Positions 14,485 through 58,127 of a stretch of DNA of 64,000 nucleotides are shown piece by piece. This stretch comes from an uncultured virus (IMG/VR IMGVR_UViG_3300043781_000014). Lineage: Duplodnaviria > Heunggongvirae > Uroviricota > Caudoviricetes. Both the position numbers and the translations under genes were made by a program. Below the pieces are notes generated by a model, which was given only the letters and a program-made list of their open reading frames with translations, did not search any database and had not been told where the DNA came from. Position 1 is the stretch's first letter; each line of letters opens with the position of its first letter. Location of the stretch: IMG/VR virus record IMGVR_UViG_3300043781_000014, positions 1 through 64,000 of that record, one strand, 5' to 3'.

Positions 14485-17400
14485 GTGAGCAAGCAAGAAG
14501 ATACAAATATTAAGGTTACGGCTGATGTTGACCCCGCCAAAGCGAGTCTTCGAGAAATTGAGGATCTAGTTAATTCTACCCAACAGAAGATTAATCGGGT
14601 ATTTAGTACTGTACAAGATAATAACGGTCAGATTAGTAATAAGCAGTTAGCTGGGGTTCAAAATGGCTTTGGTCGTTTGGACGAAGTTAAATCTGCTTTA
14701 GATAATGCTCTTAACCAAGCTAAGGCAACTCAAAATGGTTCTAAGCTAGAAGAAAGCATTAATACTTTAGCTCCTAAGTTAGATCTAGTTGTTAGTAGCT
14801 TAAGAGAGTTAAGATCTGGTAATAATAGTACTAAGCTTGATTCTATCTTTAATGCTCGTACAACTACTTCTCGTGCTTTTATAGACGGGAGTGCTACTAT
14901 TCGTGGTGAAGAGGGAGACTTTAGTCAACAAAACTTACATTATGAAAGTTTAGCTAGAGAAAGTCGATCTGATATTCATAATTTAGCTAGTTCGCTTAAA
15001 CGTGAAATGGGTAACTTAGACGTTGGTAGGAAGTCTGGTTATATTTCATATAATCGTTATCACCAGTACAAAGCCTCGTCTCAGTCTATTCAAAGCCGTT
15101 TGCAAGAACAACGAGATCGGTTTGATTCTCCTACTGGTGATATTGCTCGTTTTGCTAGTTATTATCAAAATTTACAAACTCAGGCAAAGGAAGCTAATAA
15201 TATTGCTTCTGCACCGGGCGCAACTACTGAGCAGGTTCGTTATGCTAGAGCTTTAGACGAACAAGTTAAGCACCTAGAAAAGGTTAATGAGCAATTTAAG
15301 AAGCAGGAAGAAGAATTACGAACTGCCGAAAAGAATTCAGAGTCGTTTAATGATCGCCTTAATGATACTCAAGGAGTAACTATTGGTGATGACCCTAATT
15401 CTTTTATGGGTCAGCTTAATAAGCGTAAATATACTATTTTACGTGGTGCTATCTCTGCTGGGGGCGCTTCTATTGCTAGTGCTTATGCTCAAGGAAATAG
15501 TTTAAGACTTTCTAGTTTTGACGATATTAAGTCTACTGCATATGCTAATGGTGGTAGAGATGGTGAAGTTCTTAATACTCTAGGTGACTACGGTTATAAA
15601 TATGGTTATAATGGCGCAGAAATGGGTCAGTTTGCCAATGCTTATACTTCTACTACTGGTAATGTGGGGAGTACTAGAGATGTTGCTGGTGTTGCTCAGA
15701 CGTGGGCTAGACAGTCTCGTATCACAGGAGCTAATGCACAGAGTACTTTAGGGCTAGAACAGACTGTCGGTAATAGTGCTAATTTAAATTCTAGTCAGAT
15801 GAGTAGTGTCGGTAATGCAATTACTAACTCTATCATCAATTCTGGTATGAGTGCTAAGGCAACTGAACAGCAACAAGGATTATCCATGTTAATTCAGAAT
15901 GCAAGTAATCAAGGTCTTACTGCTCGTGACGAGAAGAACTTAGCGGGCTTCCAAGGTGCAATTGCTAGTGGTGGGGCACAGTTCCAAGGTACACAAGGCG
16001 CTCAAAATACTATGCAGTTAGCTCAAGGATTAGGTAATGTTAATAGACCCAATGATGAGACAGCTTTTTGCTCAGTCTAATCCTAGTCGCTATACAGGGG
16101 TAGAGGGTTCTGCTAATATGGTTTTTGATATGCAAGAGTTCCAGAAGAAACCATGGAAGATGAAAGGAATTCTCCAAAATGCTGAAAAAGATTTTGGTAG
16201 TCGCAAGGTTGCTTCCGCTAATCTATAGTCAGGCGACTGATGTTCCGGCAGAGACTATTGAAAAGTGGATTCAATTAGCGGATTCTGGTAAGTTAGACAA
16301 GAAGCATATAGATAAGCTAGAAAAATCATCTAGTGCAAGTAAAGAAGGCGGGAAAGCAGATCAGGACTATGATAAGACAGGAGCTTCACAACTTCAAAAG
16401 TATAATTCTGCATTAGCTGATTCTGCTATGAAAGCTAGTCAAGCTTTAGACGGTTTACGTGGTATTATTGCTAAGGCTTATAAAGCTGGTGGTGGGTTAT
16501 CTCCATTTGTTTCTGGTGTCGCTAGTGCATTTGGCGCTGGTGCTGGAAATCTTATGAGTATCTATGCTCTTGATAAGTTAAGAGGTAAAGGTGGTTCTGG
16601 AGGTGCTGGAGGGTCTGGTATCTTAGGGCGTATCTTTAAAGGTGGTAAATCATCTGTAGAAAAGGAAGCTGAAAAAGCAACTGCTAAAGCTGGAGAAGAA
16701 GCTGTTAAAACTGGTGCTAAATCAGTTTCCCGTTCTGGTATCAAAGCTACTGCTTCTGGTATTCTAAAGTCTAGTAAGCTAAGAGGTTTAGTTCGTGGTG
16801 CTAAAGCTGGGTTGCCGGGTGTTGGTGATTTAGTCTTTGGTGGTTTAGATCTAGCTACCTCTGTTGCAACTACTAAGAAAGGTACTAAAGCTCGTAGAAA
16901 AGCTGTTGGTTCTAGCTTAGGATCATCTGCTGGTAGTGTTGCCGGTGGGGTTGTTGGAGGACTGATAGGTTCAATTTTCCCCGGTGCTGGTACTGCGGTT
17001 GGTGCGGTTGCTGGTAGTGTAGCTGGTGGCTGGTTAGGTGATAAGTTTGGTGGTTTCCTTGGTGGTAAGATAGGTAAGTCTAAGGATAAAGCTATTAATA
17101 AAGCTAAAGGACAATCACTTAGAGACGCTCGTAAGACTGCAAGTAAGTATAATAAGTCTGGTGGCGTACTAAGAGGTATTCTAAAGAATGGTAAGCGATT
17201 CTTACCGGGGGTTGCTCTTGGCGTTGCTGGCTTAGGCTTAATGGACGATTTCTTTGGAGGTAAAGCTAAAGCTTCTTCAAAGAAGGATAGTGAGAAATCA
17301 GAAGCATGGCGTATTTTACGTGGTTATGATAAAATGCTTGACCATGCTATGCGAGTAGTTCAATCTGCTAAGTCTATTAAGAATGGTGGAGACTCTAGTT

Positions 17401-18234: not shown

Positions 18235-18276
18235 ATGAAGTTATAATTCAATTGAACATTTATTAATACACACCCT

Positions 18277-24324: not shown

Positions 24325-24957
24325 ATGAAATATGCTCTTTATAACAATAAGGAAAATAAGTTTGTTAAGCTTTTAGCTACTCGAATGTTAAGTCATGAAA
24401 CTATTTATGAATTAACATCTGATGTGGAAGAAGTTAAAGAATTGACTGATAAGCCATATACAGAAGCAGAGCTACATCATTTTGAAGAAGTAGCTGGAGT
24501 AGAAAAAGGGTCTTTTGAAAATTACAAATTAAGTATGCAAGATGAGGAGGCTTATACGGTATATAATGCAGGAGATAAAGCTTTGCAATCTATCCATGAT
24601 TATTTGTGTATGTTAGATCCTCGTAATGTAGATAGTATTGCTGATTTTGTAGATCGGATTCAAACAACTATCTACAACTTGACTGATTTTGATATGGAAG
24701 AGTATTTTGAAGATAAAGATGATCCTCGTATGCACCTGCGACTAAATGGTTTTAATCGTCCGGTTGTTTTCATTGTTGAGTACACCTATAGCGATGACTA
24801 TGGTTCCTATACTAGCTCTGATGTTTTTGCTTATAGAGAAGATGCTGAGGGGTTTGTTAGAAAGTTGAAAGACTTACCATCTGGGGTATCTGATATATCA
24901 GTCAGTCCTAGGATTGTTTATCTTGATAAAGATAAAACTTTAGATAATGTTGATTAG
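24325..24957 (+). CDS. hypothetical protein, paralog of 23775-24308
   Basis: Collinear similarity through DFDVNAYLKDK / DFDMEEYFEDK. Confidence 0.7.
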   Translation: MKYALYNNKENKFVKLLATRMLSHETIYELTSDVEEVKELTDKPYTEAELHHFEEVAGVEKGSFENYKLSMQDEEAYTVYNAGDKALQSIHDYLCMLDPRNVDSIADFVDRIQTTIYNLTDFDMEEYFEDKDDPRMHLRLNGFNRPVVFIVEYTYSDDYGSYTSSDVFAYREDAEGFVRKLKDLPSGVSDISVSPRIVYLDKDKTLDNVD

Positions 24958-24970
24958 TCTTTAATAGAGG

Positions 24971-24999
24971 TTGACAACTATGGGTCTATGTTCTATACT
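24971..24999 (+). promoter_or_regulatory. consensus SigA promoter
   Basis: TTGACA-17 bp-TATACT. Confidence 0.85.
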
Positions 25000-25005
25000 A
25001 TGTTT

Positions 25006-25231
25006 ATGGTTAGGGACTAGCCATGGTAAAAGAGTTTAGTTCTGTAAGTTAGGTATTCAGAATACTGATGTAATATCCTAAATACTACTAGATGTTCCCA
25101 GAAACCACCTACTAAAGTGGGTGTGTAGTTCATTAATAATGTTCCTTATTTCAGTAGGGAAACTGTTTCAAACTTTTATCTGAATTCTTTGTTTGTTTTT
25201 CTTTGGCAGGGTTTGTCCCTGTTTTTTTTTT
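25006..25231 (+). ncRNA. candidate orphan IS200/IS605-type TnpB omega-RNA (scaffold 25006-~25133 + guide)
   Basis: 5' hairpin ATGGTTAG-GGA-CTAGCCAT; long central stem; GTTCCCAGAA; hairpin CACCTAC-TAAA-GTGGGTG; end TAGTTCA; terminator CAGGG-TTTGT-CCCTG then T run. Confidence 0.65.
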
Positions 25232-25275
25232 ATTTTAGCTATTGTATTTTAATTAAAGTGTGTTATACTATAGTC

Positions 25276-25398
25276 ATGGTTATGTTAATGAAGCATTTAG
25301 TCAGACTGGCAGTGACTCTATGTTTGTTTGCATTACCTCCTTTATATTAGATTAGTCGATTAAAAGAGTGCTTATCCGATTGGGTAGGTGCTCTTTTT
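25276..25398 (+). ncRNA. candidate sRNA with anti-Shine-Dalgarno motif, or leaderless 24-aa hydrophobic peptide mRNA
   Basis: TTGTAT...TG-n-TATACT 25264-25269; CATTACCTCCTTT; terminator AAAAGAGTGCTTATCC-GATT-GGGTAGGTGCTCTTTTT. Confidence 0.5.
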
Positions 25399-25475
25399 GT
25401 TTGGGTCTATATTAATTAATGACCACTAAGATATATCTTAAGTTTAACCTTTTATTTGAAAGGAAAGTGATTATA

Positions 25476-26416
25476 ATCGCGACTGTAAGCAACCAAACGG
25501 TTAGGTATTAGCTGTTTCAAAATTTCCTCTAAACGGGTATAGCTAAATAAATAGTAGTAATAAAAGAGAATAAGCTAGTAAGAGAGACTAAGCCCTGTAA
25601 TCTACTAGGGGTAGAGTTGACCAACCGTTCTAAATAAAAAGACTAACGACTAAAGTTCTAATAATTTATTAGATAAGAGCCTTATGGTGTAATGAGGAAG
25701 ATTCCTACTAAGGAATAAGATATAGTCTAATTTTATATGAAAGTATAAATATAATTTTTGTAATACCTCCAACCGAATTTATATTATGGCAAAGAACCAC
25801 TTAATTGCACGTGCCCAAAGCTTGACAGCTAATAGAAGTTACGGTACTGAGGGTGTATACGAAATCGGATCCATTAACTAGCATAGTGGTGGTTAACAGT
25901 AATGTTAATTGAAAAATTCTACTAAACGGGTAAAGCTGAATAACTGAATTGAATAGGCTAGTAAGAGAGGCTACGTCCAGAGGTGGATAGAGCTAACCAA
26001 CCGTTCTAAAACAAAAGACTAACGATTAAGTCCTTATTAGATTAAGATAAGGTAATGTAGAACCTCTTATAGAGAGGAAGATATAATCTAATCTTTTTAG
26101 AAATAAGTAGTTAATATAATGTATGCCAAGGGAACACGTATACCTAAAATATACGGGTTCTCTTACACTAGAAAGATTTCGTATGGTACGAGATAACCTT
26201 GCATCTAAACAAATGGATATAGCCCATCTGGGAGAAGACATCTTGCAAGCTGACGTTTTAACCATTTCTGTAATGGATAGCGTTACTAAAATGGTAGTCG
26301 AAGCGTTTTACGGATGCAGTGCTTCCACCTACAACACCAGTTATAGAGCCAATCAAATCGTATCTGAATCTATTGAGTTTCTTTACCTCAGCTCTTCGAC
26401 TGGCTCACAGTCATAA
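25476..26416 (+). CDS. major tail tube protein, join(25476..25501,25761..25874,26122..26416), 144 aa
   Basis: Spliced product (M)ATVSNQTVNTSNRIYIMAKNHLIARAQSLTANRSYGTEGVYEIGSIMPREHVYLKY...GCSASTYN...EFLYL is collinear with K/Twort tail tube proteins. Start is ATC (or GTG 25467). Confidence 0.9.
25502..25760 (+). ncRNA. group I intron 1 (259 nt, no ORF) in tail tube gene
   Basis: P1 AAACGGU/GCUGUUU with U-G at the splice site; P10 AGGUAUUA/UAAUACCU; P7 GACUA/UAGUC with AAGAUAUAGUC; terminal G. Confidence 0.9.
25875..26121 (+). ncRNA. group I intron 2 (247 nt, no ORF) in tail tube gene
   Basis: P1 CCAU/GUGG; P10 GCAUA/UAUGC; P7 GAUUA/UAAUC (compensatory relative to intron 1); terminal G. Confidence 0.9.
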
Positions 26417-26454
26417 TTATTATATGGTGTATTGATAACTAAATAAATTAATTT

Positions 26455-26503
26455 AATAGCGTATATCATAATCTAATATCTAGGTAACGATATACGCTAT
26501 TTT
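26455..26503 (+). terminator. hairpin after tail tube gene
   Basis: AATAGCGTATATC...GATATACGCTATT then T run. Confidence 0.65.
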
Positions 26504-26586
26504 ATATACTTTATTTCTTTTGATAAAATATACTCTTGAATGATAAATTAATTGGGGTATAATTATATAAGAAAGAAGGAATAGTA

Positions 26587-28434
26587 TTGAAAAAATTAAC
26601 TTTTGAAGAATTTAATTATAGGGCACAGCGTATACTAGGATCTAGTTATGTTTTTTATCCTCCATATAAGGATATGAAAACGCCTGTTAAATATAAGCAT
26701 TTAGTGTGCGGTACTACTGGAACCTTAATTCCTGATAACATTTTTAGGGGTAAAGCTAAATGCAAGTATTGTAGTATGAGGAGGAGATCTGGTAGACGTA
26801 TGATAACAGACGATGAGTTTAGGAAAAGGCTACATAAAGTCCGCTCTAGCGATGATATTATTTTACTTGAGCCTATACATGGTATTTTTAAGAAAACCAA
26901 GGCAAAATGTCTTGTGTGTGGATATGGTTCAAAAGGTGAATGGACTCCTCTTCCAGTTAACTTATTAAAGGGTAAAGGGTGTCCTAATTGTGCAGGTAAT
27001 GCCCCTAAAACACCAGATAAGGTAATTAAAGAAGTCAAAGATTTAGGGAAGGGTGAGTATGAATTATTAGGAACTAAGAGAACTAAAAAAGATGGTTTAT
27101 GGTTACATTTACTCCATAAAGAGTGCGAAAATGATTATTGGGTTCGTGACTATAGTTTCATACATGGTTATCGTTGTAAATTTTGTGCTAATAAAGCAAC
27201 AGGTGACAGATGTAGGCTATCCTTAGACGAAGTTAAGCAACGAATTACAAGGGTTGCTGATAGTCGTTATACATATGTAAGTGGTAATTATAAGAACAAC
27301 CAAAGCCCTATCTATGTAAGGCACAACGTATGTGGTACTGTGTTTAAAACCACATGGGGGCAACTTAGTGCTAATAGGGGATTGTGTCCTAATTGTGGTT
27401 CTTCTAATGGTGAGCAGGTGATTATGAACTATTTAGTATCACACAGGATTAGTTACTCTTATGGTTATTTAATTCCAGATTTAATAGATAAGAAAAACCT
27501 TCACTTTGACTTCTGGTTGTCTCAATTCAATACTGCTATTGAATATGATGGCCAACAACATTTTAATCCTGTCGATTTGTTTGGGGGTAAAGAGTGTTAT
27601 GAATTGCAAAATAAACATGATGAAATGAAAGATAATTATTGTAAGAAAAAAGGTATTAATTTAATTAGGATTAAATATAATGAAAGTATTAAGGACACAT
27701 TAGACTATTATCTTTTACCTTTAGTAGATAAGCTTAGTGACGTTGAGTTTAGAAAGGTAGAGAGTACAGATCTTAACGAGTTAATGATTAGGTATCATTA
27801 TTTACACCGTAAAGTGACTACTTCTTATTGTTATGGTTTATATTATCGAGGAAGTCTGGCAGGAATGGTAACATATACAAGACCTAGAATTAGCCTTGCT
27901 CAGTCAATCTCGCCTTTAGCTAATAAAGATAACACCCTAGAACTATCCAGACTATACATAAAAGATGAAGTAAGCCAAAACTTAAAGAATATTACTTCTA
28001 AGTTTGTCTCATGGACTTTAAGACAGTTAAAGAAAGAACAAGATGGTAATTGGTTTATTATTTCCTTTGCAGATCAAGGTATGCACCATACAGGAGCAAT
28101 TTACCAAGCTACTAATTTCTTATACTGTGGGACTACTAAACATCGTGAATACTCTTGGAATGGATATGGTAAGCATGGCGGTGTATGGGAAAAAGGTCAT
28201 TACTATAGGTATATGATAATTAGTCCTATCAAATATCGTTACATTATGTTCTTAGGATCAAAGACTTTTAAGAAACAAGCCCGTAAGACCCTTAAATTTG
28301 AAATTGAACCTTATCCTAAACAAGATAGCGTTCACTATTCTGTAGGTGACACAGAGGAAAGACTAATTCGAGACCGAGAAACTGGTAAGATTTGGAAAGA
28401 GTCTGAGTTAGTTAAACATCTAAAGAAAGATTAA
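26587..28434 (+). CDS. Zn-repeat + PD-(D/E)XK endonuclease fused to C-terminal Mom-like (GNAT-fold) DNA-modification domain
   Basis: Four CxxC-type repeats; HFDFWL..FNTAIEYDGQQH; then HYLHR..YGLY..LELSRL..IISFADQGMHHTGAIYQATNFLYCG. Confidence 0.75.
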   Translation: MKKLTFEEFNYRAQRILGSSYVFYPPYKDMKTPVKYKHLVCGTTGTLIPDNIFRGKAKCKYCSMRRRSGRRMITDDEFRKRLHKVRSSDDIILLEPIHGIFKKTKAKCLVCGYGSKGEWTPLPVNLLKGKGCPNCAGNAPKTPDKVIKEVKDLGKGEYELLGTKRTKKDGLWLHLLHKECENDYWVRDYSFIHGYRCKFCANKATGDRCRLSLDEVKQRITRVADSRYTYVSGNYKNNQSPIYVRHNVCGTVFKTTWGQLSANRGLCPNCGSSNGEQVIMNYLVSHRISYSYGYLIPDLIDKKNLHFDFWLSQFNTAIEYDGQQHFNPVDLFGGKECYELQNKHDEMKDNYCKKKGINLIRIKYNESIKDTLDYYLLPLVDKLSDVEFRKVESTDLNELMIRYHYLHRKVTTSYCYGLYYRGSLAGMVTYTRPRISLAQSISPLANKDNTLELSRLYIKDEVSQNLKNITSKFVSWTLRQLKKEQDGNWFIISFADQGMHHTGAIYQATNFLYCGTTKHREYSWNGYGKHGGVWEKGHYYRYMIISPIKYRYIMFLGSKTFKKQARKTLKFEIEPYPKQDSVHYSVGDTEERLIRDRETGKIWKESELVKHLKKD

Positions 28435-28555
28435 GGGGAATTAAGAAAGAGGTATAACAACGAAACTGTTGGAGAATATTCTTTCTTTTTATAATTAAGT
28501 ATTGACAACCTGTCTATTCTATTGTATTATAATAGCTGTAAAGGAGTTGTTAAGT

Positions 28556-29170
28556 ATGCGAAGAAAAACTGATAAAGAATTTAAACAAGAATTGCATGAT
28601 TTAGTAGGTGATGAATATACAGCTTTAGATCATTATGAGAAAGGAACAATTAAGATTCATATTAAGCATAATAAATGTGGTCATGTGCTATATGTTTATC
28701 CTTTGGCTTTTTTACAAAGACCTCACTGCCCTTATTGTAGTGGTCGCCCACGTTACACCCCAGCAGAGTATAGGGAGTATGTAAAAGAAATGACTAATGA
28801 TGCGTACGAGGTTTTAGACGATTTTGTAAATAATAGGACACCAATTCGTTATAAGCATAAGAAATGTGGTACTGTATTTAAGACTCTTCCTAATACCTTT
28901 AGTGTTGGGTCTGTTCGCTGTCCTGTATGTGCTAATAAGGTTCGTTCTAAGAAGCAATCCTTAACCACTGAGGAATTTAAGGAGCGGGTTCATAATTTAC
29001 CACATGGAGACGAATTCGAAGTTCTATCTGAATATAAAGGCTACCACCAACGTGTTACCTTTAAGCATAAGAAGTGTGATACTGTATGGATGACTACCCC
29101 AGCCAGTTTCTTTCTTAGTAAACATAAATGTCCGGTATGTGCAATTAATTCAACTAGAAAGGTTAAGTAA
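28556..29170 (+). CDS. protein of three Zn-binding repeats with no nuclease domain
   Basis: Same KHxKCG...CPxC repeat as 8165-9853; own TTGACA promoter at 28502 and AAGGAG RBS. Confidence 0.75.
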   Translation: MRRKTDKEFKQELHDLVGDEYTALDHYEKGTIKIHIKHNKCGHVLYVYPLAFLQRPHCPYCSGRPRYTPAEYREYVKEMTNDAYEVLDDFVNNRTPIRYKHKKCGTVFKTLPNTFSVGSVRCPVCANKVRSKKQSLTTEEFKERVHNLPHGDEFEVLSEYKGYHQRVTFKHKKCDTVWMTTPASFFLSKHKCPVCAINSTRKVK

Positions 29171-29172
29171 TT

Positions 29173-30165
29173 ATGGAGAAAGTAATTAAGAACTATTTAG
29201 ACAATGTAGATAAAGTAGAAGAGGAATTATCCCGAAAGAAAAAGTTATTGAATAAGTTTGATAATATCTCAGACCTTTTTAATTTCTTATATGTAGGTAA
29301 TTTGACTAAGGACTTATCTTTTTATGACCCTAACCATGACTCTCTAGCTTTAGATGGTGGTTTGTTTAATGATAATGAAAGGGCAATGAGAGAGGCTCTA
29401 GGTGCTGAATTTAAAAAGCGTTTAGAAAGTATTGGAATTAATAATGTAGGAGTAGACACGGATGGCTGGAGATTAGGATTTAATATTCCGTCTCCTTACC
29501 CTAATGATATTGTAATTGAGTCTTTAATCCCCAACCATAATGTTAAGTTAAATTATTATGCAGACGTTAACTCTTTAAACCAGTTATCCAGAGTAGACGA
29601 AATTAATATTGACTTAGTTCTAAAGTACTTTAATCCAATGGCTAACTATGGACGTTTTAAATGGGATCTAAAAGGTATCATTGCTCAATCAGCGAATGGG
29701 CATGATAATGAGTTTTGGTATGATGATTTATTAACTGCTTTATCGACAGATCGTGACTATTTAATTCAATGCTTGACCTTATTTAGGGGTATGCAATATG
29801 ATGATGACTCTATAGAATATCCTAATTACTTGTCTGAACGATTAAAGAGTACTGTTGAAAGATTAGAGTCTATCCATGCTCATACCCAAAAGGGTTTAGC
29901 TAAGAAGATTAAAAAGGAACTTAAAAAGTCATACTTAGAACATCAAATTGATATTATGATTAAGCCTAAGTATTTCTACTACAATCGGAAATTTAACCAG
30001 TTTAAGCAAGATATTGACCACGCAGAAATATGGAGTAACACTATTGAGATTCGTAAGTCTACAGAAGATTATTACCGTGGTATTTTTACTGGCTTGTTTA
30101 ACAAGAAAGTTAATATTAACTGGTTTGTTAAAAATTATAATGATGATTATGTAAAACTAAAATAA
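29173..30165 (+). CDS. hypothetical protein
   Basis: 330-aa ORF, tight spacing. Confidence 0.7.
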   Translation: MEKVIKNYLDNVDKVEEELSRKKKLLNKFDNISDLFNFLYVGNLTKDLSFYDPNHDSLALDGGLFNDNERAMREALGAEFKKRLESIGINNVGVDTDGWRLGFNIPSPYPNDIVIESLIPNHNVKLNYYADVNSLNQLSRVDEINIDLVLKYFNPMANYGRFKWDLKGIIAQSANGHDNEFWYDDLLTALSTDRDYLIQCLTLFRGMQYDDDSIEYPNYLSERLKSTVERLESIHAHTQKGLAKKIKKELKKSYLEHQIDIMIKPKYFYYNRKFNQFKQDIDHAEIWSNTIEIRKSTEDYYRGIFTGLFNKKVNINWFVKNYNDDYVKLK

Positions 30166-37882: not shown

Positions 37883-37949
37883 TATTAAGGGCAGGTTAAA
37901 TACCTGTCCTTTTTATATTAAAACTAGAATTTACTAAGTAGGTGATATA

Positions 37950-56252: not shown

Positions 56253-56941
56253 TGAGTGTAGCAGACCTTAAAAAGGCTTTAGGTGAAGTTGGCTTTACTC
56301 AATTAAAGAAAGCTGTTAATACTGGGAACGTAACTGTATATACAGTAAAGACTTTAAATAAAGAATTTGGCTTAGCTCCTTTAGCTGGAATTTCAGAAAG
56401 TGACGTAGCAGATAATCAAGCTGAATTAGTTAACGTTTTTGAAGAATCTTTTGTTAATATTCAAGATCAGAAGATTAGTGTTGTTATGTATGATAAGGAA
56501 TTAAATTCAGCCCTATTTAAGAGTGTAGTTCGTTCTTATGTACTAAGTCTTGAGGGACTAGAAAGTGTAAGCAATAACTTAAAAGATGAAATTGATTATG
56601 ACTCTTACATGGCTAAATTAGTAAAAGAGGACAAATTAGGTATTTTAGTTGTTAAAGACGAAGACGAGGATCATCTTTATATGTTTAAGAAAGAACCAGC
56701 TTTAATTAAATTAAAGGTTATTAAGCAATTAAGAGACCTAGCAGAGTCCGAAGATATTGATACGAATAAGGATAAGCAAGACCAATTTATGAAGTTAAAT
56801 AAACTAGCTAAAAAGTCCTATAAGGAAAACAAGACTTACATTAGTCATCTTGATCCACTTATTACCCAACGGGCAATCTATGATCCAGACGTAAGAGAAA
56901 AAGTAAAACTATTTAATAACTTAAAAATGATGTATGATTAA
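56252..56941 (+). CDS. hypothetical protein
   Basis: TAATG overlap. Confidence 0.65.
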   Translation: MSVADLKKALGEVGFTQLKKAVNTGNVTVYTVKTLNKEFGLAPLAGISESDVADNQAELVNVFEESFVNIQDQKISVVMYDKELNSALFKSVVRSYVLSLEGLESVSNNLKDEIDYDSYMAKLVKEDKLGILVVKDEDEDHLYMFKKEPALIKLKVIKQLRDLAESEDIDTNKDKQDQFMKLNKLAKKSYKENKTYISHLDPLITQRAIYDPDVREKVKLFNNLKMMYD

Positions 56942-58010
56942 TATGATTAAACAAAACTATAAAGAGAAATTTTGCGATACAAATAAAGTGAAACCTAAAA
57001 GAACGTATAATGTACTAGAGCTTTTTGCAGGAGCTGGTGGGCTAGCCTTAGGACTAGAAGAAGCTGGTTTTAAAGATGTTGGGCTTGTAGAAATAGATAA
57101 AAATGCAGTAGCAACTTTAAAACGAAATAGACCAAATTGGAATGTTATCAAAGGAGATATTACAAAAATAACAGATGATCCAGAAGGTATTAGAAAATAT
57201 ATACCTAAGGACACTGAGATCGATCTGCTTAGTGGTGGTTATCCATGCCAAGCATTTTCTTATGCTGGAAAGAGAAAAGGTCTCGAAGATACTCGAGGAA
57301 CATTATTTTATAATTATGCTCAAATATTAAAGCAAACGATGCCAAAAATGTTTCTTGTAGAAAATGTTAAAGGTTTAACCACGCACGATCATGGAAGAAC
57401 GCTTAAAACAATGATCAATGTATTCGAAGAAATCGGTTATCATACCCAATATAAGGTATTAAATGCGTGGGACTATGGAGTTGCAGAAAAAAGACAACGT
57501 ATGATTCTAATTGGTATTAGGAATGATTTAAACATTAAATATATGTATCCTAAGCCTCACACCTACAAACCAGTGCTAAAAGACGTACTAGTGAATGTTC
57601 CTGATAGTCCGGGTGTAAAATACTCTAAGAAAAAGTATAATGTATTAAAACTTGTTCCAGCTGGAGGATATTGGCGGGATTTACCAGAAGAAATCGCTAA
57701 AGACTATATGGGAGCAAGCTGGAATTCTGGTGGTGGACGGACAGGTATGGCAAGAAGATTAAGTTGGGACGAACCAAGCCTTACTCTTACTACGTCACCA
57801 TCTCAAAAGCAAACGGAGCGATGCCATCCAGATGAGACAAGACCTTTCACAACTAGAGAGTACGCACGTATTCAGAGTTTTCCAGATGAATGGAAATTTG
57901 AAGGCGGTGTAGGTTCAGTGTATAAACAGATTGGAAATGCTGTAGCCGTTAATTTTGCTAAAGAGATAGGATTATCTATAATTGATTCCTTAAATCAGAT
58001 AGAAAAGTAG
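56934..58010 (+). CDS. dcm: C5-cytosine DNA methyltransferase, target-recognition region resembling GGNCC-type enzymes (M.Sau96I/M.Eco47II-like)
   Basis: FAGAGG, GGYPCQ, ENVKG, R.R, YKQIGNAV; GGYWRDLP..SPSQKQTERCHP. Specificity is inferred. Confidence 0.9.
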   Translation: MINMIKQNYKEKFCDTNKVKPKRTYNVLELFAGAGGLALGLEEAGFKDVGLVEIDKNAVATLKRNRPNWNVIKGDITKITDDPEGIRKYIPKDTEIDLLSGGYPCQAFSYAGKRKGLEDTRGTLFYNYAQILKQTMPKMFLVENVKGLTTHDHGRTLKTMINVFEEIGYHTQYKVLNAWDYGVAEKRQRMILIGIRNDLNIKYMYPKPHTYKPVLKDVLVNVPDSPGVKYSKKKYNVLKLVPAGGYWRDLPEEIAKDYMGASWNSGGGRTGMARRLSWDEPSLTLTTSPSQKQTERCHPDETRPFTTREYARIQSFPDEWKFEGGVGSVYKQIGNAVAVNFAKEIGLSIIDSLNQIEK

Positions 58011-58127
58011 CTAGATACTCTCTACAAGAATTAGGCTTAGTCAAATGATTAATACTAATTAGGCTAACAATTATGTTAGTCTTTTTTATTAATAAACAAA
58101 ACTATATTATAAACAAGGTGATAATAA

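What the first reader, a model, noticed from the sequence alone, without database searches (positions are those of the whole stretch)
24971..25231. Stand-alone TnpB-type omega-RNA gene with its own promoter, guide and terminator, and no tnpB nearby
Seen: a perfect TTGACA-17-TATACT promoter puts +1 exactly on the first base of a structured RNA. It has hairpin ATGGTTAG-GGA-CTAGCCAT, a nested central stem (TTTAGT/ACTAGA, TTAGG/CCTAA, TCAG/CTGA), GTTCCCAGAA, subterminal hairpin CACCTAC-TAAA-GTGGGTG, and the end TAGTTCA. GGACTA in the 5' hairpin can pair with the terminal TAGTTC (pseudoknot). About 75 nt follow before a strong terminator. Knowledge: this layout matches my recollection of IS200/IS605 right ends, which encode the TnpB omega-RNA whose 3' flank is the guide. 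Inference: the phage keeps a domesticated, trans-acting guide RNA (guide ~TAATAATGTTCCTTATTTC) for a TnpB or TldR encoded elsewhere or by the host. The junction read antisense is AAGGAACATTATTAATG, which looks like an RBS plus start codon and hints at gene repression rather than transposon homing.
Basis: partly seen in the sequence, partly recalled or inferred. Interest (0 to 1): 0.85.

Follow-up and report, generated by a model that had tools for sequence, protein, structure and literature searches.

The report
Solo TnpB guide RNA gene in phage
A lactobacillus-type phage carries the guide-RNA part of a TnpB transposon without the TnpB gene, inserted right behind the promoter of a small conserved RNA gene, and related phages hold many such protein-less guide genes, a possible step between transposon guides and CRISPR-like guide sets.

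Summary
The omega-RNA reading is largely right; the repression reading is not supported.

- **Identity.** Window 25006-25133 belongs to an RNA scaffold family that lies at the 3' end of tnpB in Lactobacillus phage LP65 and in IMG/VR relatives. Stems and the pseudoknot covary. The scaffold always ends at GTTCA plus one base, and the downstream "guide" differs between loci.
- **tnpB.** None is found in the 75-kb record, which is only 57% complete. The sister phage G001 has the same solo gene and a frameshifted tnpB about 63 kb away.
- **Insertion.** Three complete relatives have the same promoter joined directly to the "guide" and terminator. The scaffold is therefore a 135-nt insertion at the start of a conserved small non-coding unit, and the guide is that unit's 5' end.
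- **Solo copies.** Across nine phage records 9 of 17 family copies lack tnpB. Most have their own -10 box, and one is tandem to a linked copy.
- **TAM.** The family TAM is TTAT, from four sites.
- **Best reading.** A left-end-less solo omega-RNA acts in trans with phage TnpB against uninterrupted alleles. Function is untested. An inert relic is the main rival.

The parts
24971..24999 (+). Sigma-70-type promoter, TTGACA-17-TATACT. It is native to the locus: present with and without the scaffold in relatives.
   Evidence: The alignment shows the same promoter in G001 (filled) and in G002, G004 and G007 (uninterrupted).
24999..25133 (+). 135-nt insertion relative to three complete relatives. It consists of 9 nt (TATGTTTAT) plus the 126-nt scaffold element. 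The junction is ambiguous by 2 nt (TA).
25003..25007 (+). TTTAT, matching the family TAM (TTAT), directly 5' of the first conserved scaffold base at 25008.
   Evidence: The family TAM is derived.
25006..25133 (+). TnpB omega-RNA scaffold: 5' hairpin, long nested central stem, GTTCCCAGAA block, variable subterminal hairpin (the transposon right-end hairpin), and the end GTTCA plus one base.
   Evidence: Covariance model R1 hits 25006-25132 at 140.3 bits, E 5e-34. Homology. Covariation.
25014..25018 (+). 5' arm of the pseudoknot (GGACT), pairing with 25127-25131.
   Evidence: helix 2: 100% paired in 13 sequences, with one two-sided change.
25127..25131 (+). 3' arm of the pseudoknot (AGTTC), two bases before the guide.
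   Evidence: The same position as the pseudoknot described for ISDra2 in PMC10097598 (passages).
25134..25149 (+). Guide-equivalent 16 nt (TAATAATGTTCCTTAT). It is the 5' end of the conserved small unit.
   Evidence: The register comes from three filled/empty comparisons.
25134..25235 (+). Body and intrinsic terminator (stem 25205-25223, T-run to 25233) of the older small non-coding unit, here called sRNA-A.
   Evidence: 100 of 102 bases are identical to G001.
25242..25402 (+). Second conserved small unit: TTGTAT-16-TATACT promoter, a CCTCC-containing body and a terminator-like hairpin. It is a neighbour and not part of the omega-RNA.
   Evidence: The possible short ORF is broken in G007.

Best explanation
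Window 25006-25133 is a genuine TnpB omega-RNA scaffold. It comes from an IS200/IS605-type, TnpA-less (tnpB-only) element family that lives in LP65-like phages of Lactobacillaceae.

Here the scaffold is a solo copy with no tnpB and no left end. It sits as a 135-nt insertion between the -10 box and the body of an older, conserved small non-coding transcription unit. The phage promoter should therefore produce a chimeric RNA made of scaffold plus guide, where the guide (25134-25149) is the 5' end of that unit, ending at the unit's terminator.

The most likely working, which is inferred and not shown, runs as follows. The RNA is loaded in trans by a TnpB of the same family encoded elsewhere in the phage. 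The sister phage has one about 63 kb away, beyond the end of this partial contig. A co-infecting relative could also supply it. The complex is directed at the uninterrupted allele of the same locus in related phages. Break repair there would copy the insertion or exclude the rival allele. This would be RNA-guided homing or marker exclusion by a protein-less guide gene.

Identity and architecture are shown. Transcription, TnpB loading and cleavage are inferred.
For: **Homology**
- 88.5% identity to LP65, exactly from the last 13 nt of the tnpB gene gp060 to the element end. gp060 carries the three TnpB Pfam domains.
- The same scaffold lies directly 3' of tnpB in 8 places across 6 records: LP65, G001, G002 (two), G003, G006 and G007 (two).

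**Structure**
- 30 pairs with 98.5% of cells paired, 7 pairs with two-sided changes, and the pseudoknot 100% paired.
- The layout matches ISDra2: a 116-nt scaffold, four stems, and a pseudoknot between bases just 5' of the guide and the 5' region (PMC10097598 passages).

**Boundary and guide**
- All copies end at GTTCA (or close variants) plus one base, and then diverge.
- Three filled/empty comparisons place the guide start right after that base.

**TAM**
- TTAT lies directly 5' of the empty or target site at four independent sites.
- In the window, TTTAT (25003-25007) directly precedes the element.

**Insertion**
- G002, G004 and G007 (CheckV 100%) have the promoter joined directly to TAATAATGTTCC... 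or TAAGAATG....
- In nine related records the only hits with 0 or 1 mismatch are the loci themselves (G000, G001) and the uninterrupted alleles of G004 and G002. Those two differ only at position 16, which is TAM-distal. G007's allele has 2 mismatches.
- In ISDra2, mismatches at positions 13-16 are tolerated.

**Constraint**
- The scaffold is 128 of 128 identical between G000 and G001, while neighbouring segments are 83-93% identical.

**Trans partner**
- G001 has the identical solo gene and a same-family tnpB with its own omega-RNA at about 92 kb.
- The family TnpB keeps RuvC D/E/D (D191A and E278A are inactivating in ISDra2).

**Recurrence of solo copies**
- 9 of 17 model hits in nine records have no tnpB upstream.
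- Copies outside the training set keep the full model: solos score 115-149 bits and 0 of 7 chance loci hit.
- Eight of nine distinct solo loci show a -10-like box upstream, by my reading.
- Four are exact-boundary insertions or deletion derivatives.

**Precedent**
- Protein-less IS605 mini-elements encoding omega-RNAs that need TnpB in trans are noted by Meers et al. (preprint Discussion).
- Homing between co-infecting phages is listed as a type in the review PMC13565253.
Against: - No tnpB is found in the 75-kb record.
- The sister phage's tnpB is split by a frameshift in a G7 run. This is either an assembly error or a real pseudogene.
- G004, estimated complete, has two solo copies but only a different-clade TnpB (408 aa, TNB score 66 bits against more than 100 for this family). 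Solo copies can therefore persist without a cognate nuclease in cis.
- In the uninterrupted alleles the bases 5' of the guide match are TATAC or TATAA, not TTAT. By the family's own TAM rule, canonical TnpB cleavage of those alleles is doubtful.
- The extra 9 nt (TATGTTTAT) at the left junction are unexplained.
- Guide bases 8-16 are predicted to be paired in the 5' hairpin of the older unit.
- There is no transcript evidence. Contigs from RNA libraries carry many scaffold variants but cannot show starts or strand, and may be DNA.
- No Rfam model matches.
- All related records come from a few samples and are related phages, so the counts are not independent events.
Confidence: 0.6

Rival explanations
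1. Inert remnant. The scaffold is a dead piece of an IS element, or was copied by recombination. It happens to sit behind a promoter and is transcribed as a passenger on the 5' end of the older small RNA, with no TnpB-dependent activity. It might slightly alter that RNA.
For: - No tnpB in the record, and the tnpB in G001 is frameshifted.
- G004 has solo copies without a same-clade tnpB.
- The uninterrupted alleles lack the TTAT TAM.
- Deletion intermediates exist. L046 keeps a 20-aa TnpB remnant fused to the scaffold, and L052 keeps the last codons of tnpB.
- The element has no left end and no TnpA is found in 5 of 5 records, so it cannot transpose canonically.
Against: - 128 of 128 identity between G000 and G001, where flanks are 83-93% identical.
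- Solo copies score as high as linked ones with the covariance model.
- Compensatory changes are seen in solo copies too, for example the central stem of the G004-type solo.
- Own -10 boxes recur at a fixed distance of 8 nt before GGTTAGG in three module types.
- The leader hairpin with the conserved loop GAAAACCAA keeps its loop while its stem changes in solo copies.
Confidence: 0.28
2. Domesticated regulator. The solo guide RNA directs a nuclease-dead TnpB relative (TldR-like), or a host TnpB, to repress a host or phage gene.
For: - Phage-encoded TldR with guide RNAs exists (seen in search listings and abstract starts only).
- The gene has a strong promoter and a terminator.
Against: - No TnpB-like ORF is found in the record.
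- The family TnpBs keep the catalytic D/E/D.
- The guide equals the 5' end of a conserved non-coding unit and matches only that locus in nine related records.
- There is no match with 3 or fewer mismatches in 16 nt elsewhere in the 75-kb genome.
- The antisense RBS plus ATG depends on scaffold bases that are absent from the uninterrupted alleles.
- Host genomes could not be scanned because the host is unknown.
Confidence: 0.07
3. PATE-type non-autonomous transposon, mobilised by a host TnpA. Under this reading the RNA is only a by-product of the right end.
For: - A sibling solo, L019, behaves like a mini-IS. It is a 161-nt exact insertion after TTAT with a 43-nt left part containing a hairpin.
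- The right-end hairpin is kept in all copies.
Against: - The window copy has no left-end block or partner hairpin. Only 9 nt precede the scaffold.
- The hairpins of the full elements' left ends resemble their own right-end hairpins, but nothing similar lies upstream here.
- No Y1 TnpA is found in 5 of 5 records, three of them complete.
Confidence: 0.05

Closest known systems
ISDra2 TnpB omega-RNA / reRNA (Deinococcus radiodurans; PMC8612924 and PMC10097598, passages read)
   Same: - A scaffold of about 120 nt derived from the transposon right end.
- Several stems, plus a pseudoknot between bases just 5' of the guide and the 5' region.
- The guide is the DNA flanking the right end.
- A TAM 5' of the target.
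- A RuvC D/E/D nuclease partner (TnpB E 1.6e-54 to 8bf8/8h1j).
   Different: - No detectable sequence similarity of the RNA, and no Rfam model.
- The TAM is TTAT here against TTGAT.
- The window copy is not overlapped by tnpB, has no left end, is promoter-driven, and lies in a lytic-type phage.
Right end of the tnpB element of Lactobacillus phage LP65 (gp060, NC_006565.1)
   Same: - The closest named sequence relative: 88.5% identity over 96 nt, the same end GTAGTTCA, and compensatory changes in both hairpins.
   Different: - LP65 has the full element with a left-end hairpin block, a 387-aa tnpB and an omega-RNA that overlaps the ORF end. It lies in front of the DNA polymerase gene.
- The window has only the scaffold.
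PATE-like protein-less IS200/IS605 mini-elements encoding omega-RNAs (Meers et al. preprint 10.1101/2023.03.14.532601, Discussion and Methods passages)
   Same: - Omega-RNA without a nuclease gene, which needs TnpB in trans.
   Different: - PATEs keep both a left and a right end and are moved by TnpA.
- The window copy has no left end, no TnpA is found in the phages, and expression comes from a captured or native sigma-70 promoter.
TldR guide RNAs (TnpB-like nuclease-dead repressors, some phage-encoded; listings and abstract starts only)
   Same: - TnpB-type guide RNA used outside transposition, and encoded by phages.
   Different: - TldR loci have the dead nuclease next to the guide, and the guide targets a host promoter.
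- Here there is no adjacent protein, the family nucleases look active, and the guide matches the phage's own locus.
Free-standing homing endonucleases and group I intron homing in phages (review PMC13565253, passages)
   Same: - Presence/absence polymorphism with exact boundaries among related phages.
- Target-site changes in alleles that lack the element.
- The neighbourhood is rich in HNH endonuclease genes and group I introns.
   Different: - Specificity would come from an RNA supplied separately from the nuclease. This would be a guide-only element.

Membership tests
TnpB omega-RNA (right-end-derived guide RNA of IS200/IS605-type elements) | Sequence homologous to the 3' end or right end of tnpB-bearing elements | tested here: met
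   LP65 gp060 3' end at 88.5% identity. Eight tnpB-linked copies in six records.
TnpB omega-RNA (right-end-derived guide RNA of IS200/IS605-type elements) | Conserved multi-stem fold with a pseudoknot next to the guide, supported by covariation | tested here: met
   98.5% of cells paired, 7 pairs with two-sided changes, 0 of 500 shuffles reach the covariation score, and the pseudoknot is 100% paired. Caveat: the 13 sequences are related to each other.
TnpB omega-RNA (right-end-derived guide RNA of IS200/IS605-type elements) | Scaffold ends at the element boundary, followed by a locus-specific guide | tested here: met
   Boundaries are fixed by filled/empty pairs.
TnpB omega-RNA (right-end-derived guide RNA of IS200/IS605-type elements) | TAM 5' of the sequence that the guide matches | tested here: inconclusive
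   The family TAM is TTAT at four sites. In the window TTTAT lies directly 5' of the element. The uninterrupted alleles in relatives have TATAC or TATAA there.
TnpB omega-RNA (right-end-derived guide RNA of IS200/IS605-type elements) | A cognate TnpB available in the same genome | tested here: inconclusive
   None in the 57%-complete record. The sister phage has one, with a frameshift.
TnpB omega-RNA (right-end-derived guide RNA of IS200/IS605-type elements) | RNA is made, bound by TnpB and guides DNA cleavage | not testable with these tools
   Contigs from RNA libraries hold scaffold variants but give no start, strand or proof of RNA origin.
Rfam-curated RNA family | Score at or above a family's gathering threshold | tested here: not met
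   0 matches in the window at gathering threshold. At E up to 10 in 24800-26700 the only hits are group I intron, snoR25 and Atu_C9, and none lies on 25006-25133.
PATE (protein-less IS200/IS605 mini-element) | Left end with a subterminal hairpin paired to a similar right-end hairpin | tested here: not met
   Only 9 nt of the insertion precede the scaffold. No partner hairpin or left-end block is found in the 75 kb.
PATE (protein-less IS200/IS605 mini-element) | Insertion directly 3' of the TAM, with exact boundaries | tested here: inconclusive
   TTTAT abuts the scaffold, but the insertion relative to relatives starts 9 nt earlier, after TATAC.
TldR-associated guide RNA | Adjacent nuclease-dead TnpB homologue | tested here: not met
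   No TnpB-like ORF in the record. The family TnpB keeps D/E/D.

The most novel reading that the evidence does not exclude
LP65-like phages of Lactobacillaceae may run a distributed RNA-guided system. One or a few tnpB genes would serve a pool of separately encoded, promoter-driven, protein-less guide genes. About half of all scaffold copies are solo, one is tandem to a linked copy, and several are miniaturised with a retained leader hairpin.

These guide genes would spread by homing into, or excluding, the uninterrupted alleles of co-infecting relatives. Resistant alleles would accumulate seed mismatches in response.

This would be a natural intermediate between a transposon-bound single guide and a CRISPR-like arrangement of many guides for one nuclease, operating in phage-against-phage competition.
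Probability: 0.3. Interest if true: 0.85.

Novelty: new variant of a known kind. Interest (0 to 1): 0.66.

Why it matters
**Why it would matter**
- TnpB is the ancestor of Cas12. How its guide became separated from the transposon end, gained its own promoter and multiplied is an open question.
- This phage group shows those steps side by side in natural sequence:
  - omega-RNAs that overlap tnpB;
  - omega-RNAs with their own promoter behind tnpB;
  - deletion remnants;
  - a tandem pair;
  - fully solo guide genes, including the window's copy, which uses the promoter of an older small RNA gene.
- The group also offers filled/empty allele pairs with a defined TAM. RNA-guided homing between co-infecting lytic phages therefore becomes directly testable.

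**If the copy is only a relic**
- The finding is still a clean description of how IS605 right ends decay in phage genomes.

**Literature**
- Four searches were read as titles and abstract starts, plus passages of four papers. None described left-end-less, promoter-driven solo omega-RNA genes in such phages.
- The general idea of trans-acting omega-RNAs from protein-less elements is already in print.

Tried and rejected
**Database and collection scans**
- Rfam gave nothing on the element, at gathering threshold or at E up to 10.
- The 19-mer scan of 185,579 species genomes gave one locus, L005 from a Segetibacter MAG. It has no scaffold around the match and no model hit, so it is chance.
- The 17-mer metagenome scan gave 13 loci. 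Six were chance matches (five of them were tested with the model and none hit), two were duplicates of G002, and five were true family members.
- The scan for the uninterrupted and filled locus found only G001, G004 and G007. With G000 and G002 the sample for polarity is five records, two filled and three empty.

**Search for guide targets**
- No match with 3 or fewer mismatches in 16 nt elsewhere in the 75 kb.
- The IMG/VR 18-mer scan gave 12 loci. One is G001's own copy. The other eleven are unrelated coding contexts without a shared flank.
- Two of those eleven, L026 and L030, are the same sequence. They have ATTAT followed by a 17-nt match inside a phage structural ORF. I treat this as chance, since about 0.3 such cases are expected among ten hits, but I cannot exclude a real target.

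**RNA evidence**
- Four RNA-library runs, available as contigs only, cover mainly 25008-25109 with many variants. They give no start, end or strand, and one contig includes promoter DNA. They are not used as evidence of expression.

**Other checks that led nowhere**
- A search for a left end found no partner hairpin. The 11-mer and 13-mer matches to left-end blocks lie in coding DNA without the hairpin.
- The antisense 38-aa ORF at 25017-25133 is rejected. It lies inside the scaffold, and its start uses scaffold bases that the uninterrupted alleles lack.
- The short ORF in the second small unit is rejected, because it is broken in G007.
- I tried to explain the extra 9 nt and the 22-nt leader (TATGTTNTATACTATRYTTAT) shared by the window-type and G004-type solos as a recombination or circular-intermediate product. 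I found no consistent model, so it stays unexplained.
- The search of earlier findings returned nothing.
Full report
**1. What is in the sequence**

- The promoter is TTGACA (24971-24976), a 17-nt spacer and TATACT (24994-24999).
- It is the only TTGACA-N15-19-TATACT in the window, although 16 of 100 shuffles also give at least one.
- A structured stretch runs from 25006 to 25133.
- 72 nt further on lies a terminator with stem 25205-25223 and a T-run to 25233.
- The window holds no tRNA.
- The single-sequence fold is not exceptional, with z = -1.57. Support for the structure has to come from relatives.

**2. Identity**

A blastn search of 24900-25450 against 50,697 phage records hit only Lactobacillus phage LP65 (two records of one genome). 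The match is 88.5% over window 25008-25103.

In LP65 the match starts 13 nt before the stop codon of gp060, annotated "transposase", and runs downstream. gp060 carries HTH_OrfB_IS605, OrfB_IS605 and Cas12f1-like_TNB, so it is a TnpB. Both sequences end at GTAGTTCA and diverge after it, and both hairpins show compensatory changes.

Exact-word scans of IMG/VR brought in more copies (3 loci, 11 loci). I aligned 13 scaffolds (A2).
- RNAalifold gave 27 pairs, 5 of them with two-sided changes.
  - 98.5% of cells are standard pairs;
  - 7 pairs show two-sided changes;
  - 0 of 500 shuffles reach the covariation score;
  - slid controls pair at 31.6-50.8%.
- The pseudoknot (GGACT 25014-25018 with AGTTC 25127-25131) pairs in 13 of 13 sequences. 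In the two G002a/G003a copies it switches AU to UA.

The sequences are related, so these figures overstate independence.

The layout matches what Nakagawa et al. describe for ISDra2: a scaffold of about 116 nt, four stems, and a pseudoknot between bases -5 to -3 and the 5' region (PMC10097598, passages). Rfam has no model that matches.

**3. Where the nuclease is**

The window is bases 1-64000 of a 75,303-nt IMG/VR record that CheckV rates 57% complete.
- No TNB domain and no match to a family TnpB is found in it.
- The sister record G001 (96.7 kb, 74% complete) has the same solo gene at 29162-29288. It also has a same-family tnpB at about 92.1-93.4 kb with its own overlapping omega-RNA and a different guide.
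- That tnpB is split by one extra G in a G7 run. I cannot tell an assembly error from a pseudogene.
- By colinearity the G001 tnpB lies beyond the point where the window's contig ends. This is an inference.
- A family TnpB (L004) aligns over its full length to the ISDra2 TnpB structures at E 1.6e-54. In the one alignment printed, to a 408-residue designed TnpB-like nuclease, chain positions 191, 278 and 361 (D, E, D) pair with D, E, D of the query. I equate these positions with ISDra2's catalytic residues from recall, which shows D191A and E278A to be inactivating.
- No Y1 TnpA is found in 5 of 5 records, three of them estimated complete. The control genomes did give matches.

**4. The key correction: the scaffold is an insertion into an older small unit**

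At the syntenic locus, G002, G004 and G007 (all CheckV 100%) carry the same promoter, AAAGGTTGACAA...TATG.T.TATA(C/A). It is joined directly to TAATAATGTTCCTTAATTC... (TAAGAATG... in G007), followed by the same tail and terminator.
- Window 24999-25133 is therefore a 135-nt insertion found only in G000 and G001. The junction is ambiguous by the dinucleotide TA.
- The insertion consists of 9 nt (TATGTTTAT) plus the 126-nt scaffold element.
- The promoter, the "guide" and the terminator belong to a conserved small non-coding unit. A second conserved unit follows at 25242-25402. Its possible short ORF is broken in G007.
- Polarity (insertion, not three separate losses) is inferred by parsimony from five records.
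- Between G000 and G001 the identities are as follows:
  - scaffold, 128 of 128;
  - unit body, 100 of 102;
  - promoter, 46 of 48;
  - second unit, 92.7%;
  - upstream ORF, 83%;
  - downstream DNA, 88.5%.

**5. Family rules: TAM and guide register**

Four independent sites give a TTAT TAM directly 5' of the sequence that a guide matches.
- **L021.** The full element L021 of G007 is absent from the window at 37916|37917. The empty site reads TTTAT|ATTAAAAC....
- **L019.** The 161-nt solo L019 of G007 is absent from the window at 18244|18245. The empty site reads GTTAT|AATTCAATTG....
- **G002b.** The guide of the G002b element has a perfect 16 of 16 match in the window at 58075-58090, preceded by TTAT.
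- **G004-type solo.** The uninterrupted allele in G002 reads GTTTAT|TATAATAAATG....

The right end includes one base after GTTCA in these pairs, which fixes the window's guide at 25134-25149.

In the window, TTTAT (25003-25007) lies directly 5' of the first conserved scaffold base, as in a canonical element. In the uninterrupted alleles of relatives, however, the 5' flank of the guide match is TATAC or TATAA. This conflict and the extra 9 nt remain unexplained.

**6. What the guide matches**

- In the 75 kb there is no other match with 3 or fewer mismatches in 16 nt.
- In nine related records the best matches are the loci themselves and the uninterrupted alleles:
  - G004 and G002 each have one mismatch, at position 16;
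  - G007 has two, at positions 4 and 16;
  - all other hits have two mismatches and lie at unrelated places.
- In ISDra2, mismatches at positions 13-16 are tolerated and double mismatches within 1-12 abolish cleavage.
- The relation is thus the usual one between a right-end guide and its empty site, apart from the TAM problem.

**7. Solo copies are common and look maintained**

The covariance model R1 found 17 copies in nine records.
- Eight lie directly 3' of a tnpB.
- Nine do not:
  - G000;
  - G001;
  - G004, two copies;
  - G005;
  - G006, two copies, one of them 63 nt behind a linked copy, which makes a tandem pair;
  - G007, two copies.

The metagenome scan added one linked copy and four copies without a tnpB ORF (L044, L046, L048, L052).
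- L046 keeps a 20-residue TnpB remnant fused to the scaffold.
- L052 keeps the last tnpB codons behind a TGCTATACT box.

Copies outside the training set score 115-149 bits, and none of seven control loci hit.

Three module types place a -10 hexamer 8 nt before GGTTAGG: the window type, the G004/G006/G007 type, and the G002a/G003a type, which sits behind a tnpB stop codon.

Another class (L016, L018-2, L019, L044, L048, and L012 with a different stem) has a -10 box followed by a leader hairpin with loop GAAAACCAA. The same loop occurs in a hairpin inside the tnpB ORF about 320 nt upstream of the scaffold. This suggests a miniaturised omega-RNA, which is an inference. The window copy lacks this leader.

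G004, estimated complete, has two solo copies but only a TnpB of another clade.

**8. Mechanism and rivals**

*Best reading, about 0.6 overall.* Identity as a solo omega-RNA scaffold is about 0.9. Function in trans is about 0.45.
- The native promoter makes a scaffold-guide chimera.
- A same-family TnpB, from the phage itself or from a co-infecting relative, loads it.
- The complex acts on uninterrupted alleles.

This resembles the "non-restorative homing" between co-infecting phages listed in the review PMC13565253, and the trans use of omega-RNAs from protein-less elements noted by Meers et al..

*Evidence on both sides.*
- The window's empty sites for G007's guides carry more changes than their flanks:
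  - five of 16 at 37917-37932, against 91-96% flank identity;
  - two of 16, at seed positions 5 and 7, at 18245-18260, against 94-96% flank identity.
- This fits target escape but rests on two sites.
- Against function:
  - the TAM mismatch at the uninterrupted alleles;
  - the frameshifted tnpB in G001;
  - G004 without a cognate tnpB;
  - no transcript evidence.

*Rivals.*
- Inert remnant, 0.28.
- TldR-type or host-directed regulator, 0.07.
- TnpA-mobilised PATE, 0.05.

**9. Comparison and novelty**

The element works like, and by sequence and structure belongs to, TnpB omega-RNAs. It fails the PATE definition because it has no left end. It fails the TldR pattern because there is no adjacent dead nuclease. 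I rate it a new variant of a known kind: a left-end-less solo guide gene driven by a native or acquired promoter, in lytic-type phages, as part of a polymorphic population of such genes.

All related records come from a few metagenome samples. LP65 is the only named isolate found.

Noticed in passing
window 25875-26122, with exons about 25786-25874 and 26123-26416: A group I intron-like element (Rfam Intron_gpI, 17.1 bits, below threshold) interrupts a virion structural gene (phrog_985). The sister phage G001 has the gene uninterrupted as a 127-aa ORF, which fixes the intron at about 248 nt.
   Followed up: partly
window about 25504-25762: A second group I intron-like element (Intron_gpI, 31.5 bits, E 1e-5, below threshold) lies just upstream of that gene's ATG. 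It is present in G001 too. One contig of an RNA library joins 25503 to about 25763, which means either a spliced RNA or an intron-less relative.
   Followed up: partly
window 25242-25402: A second conserved promoter-to-terminator unit with a CATTACCTCCTTTAT motif, which resembles an anti-Shine-Dalgarno sequence. It is conserved in G001, G002, G004 and G007. Its possible 24-aa ORF is broken in G007, so it is probably a small RNA.
   Followed up: partly
window 58071-58090 and ORF 56934-58010: TTAT followed by a perfect 16-nt match to the guide of a tnpB element of phage G002. Where G002 has that element, this phage has a C-5 cytosine DNA methylase gene.
   Followed up: partly
window 18241-18260 and 37912-37932: Empty sites, TAM plus target, for a 161-nt solo omega element and a full tnpB element of phage G007. 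The target bases carry 2 and 5 mismatches in 16, while the flanks are 91-96% identical. This could be escape from RNA-guided cleavage.
   Followed up: partly
L018 (G006 16804-17118): Two omega scaffolds in tandem behind one tnpB, each with its own guide. The second has its own -10 box and a leader hairpin, so the arrangement looks like a small array.
   Followed up: partly
L004, L013 and L018 (tnpB copies in G002, G003 and G006): These tnpB copies lack the left-end hairpin block seen in LP65, L015, L020, L021 and L022. They have a TTGAC...TATACT-like promoter instead, so they look immobilised.
   Followed up: no
window 26587-28434 and 28502-29170: Two HNH endonuclease-like ORFs lie just downstream of the intron-bearing gene. 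One is fused to a Mom-like domain. The neighbourhood is dense in selfish elements.
   Followed up: no
L002 and L004, downstream of the scaffold: In G002a/G003a the scaffold ends GTAGATCG. The flank looks like the 3' part of a tRNA-like sequence (GGTTCGAGTC-type arm), but ARAGORN calls no tRNA there.
   Followed up: no
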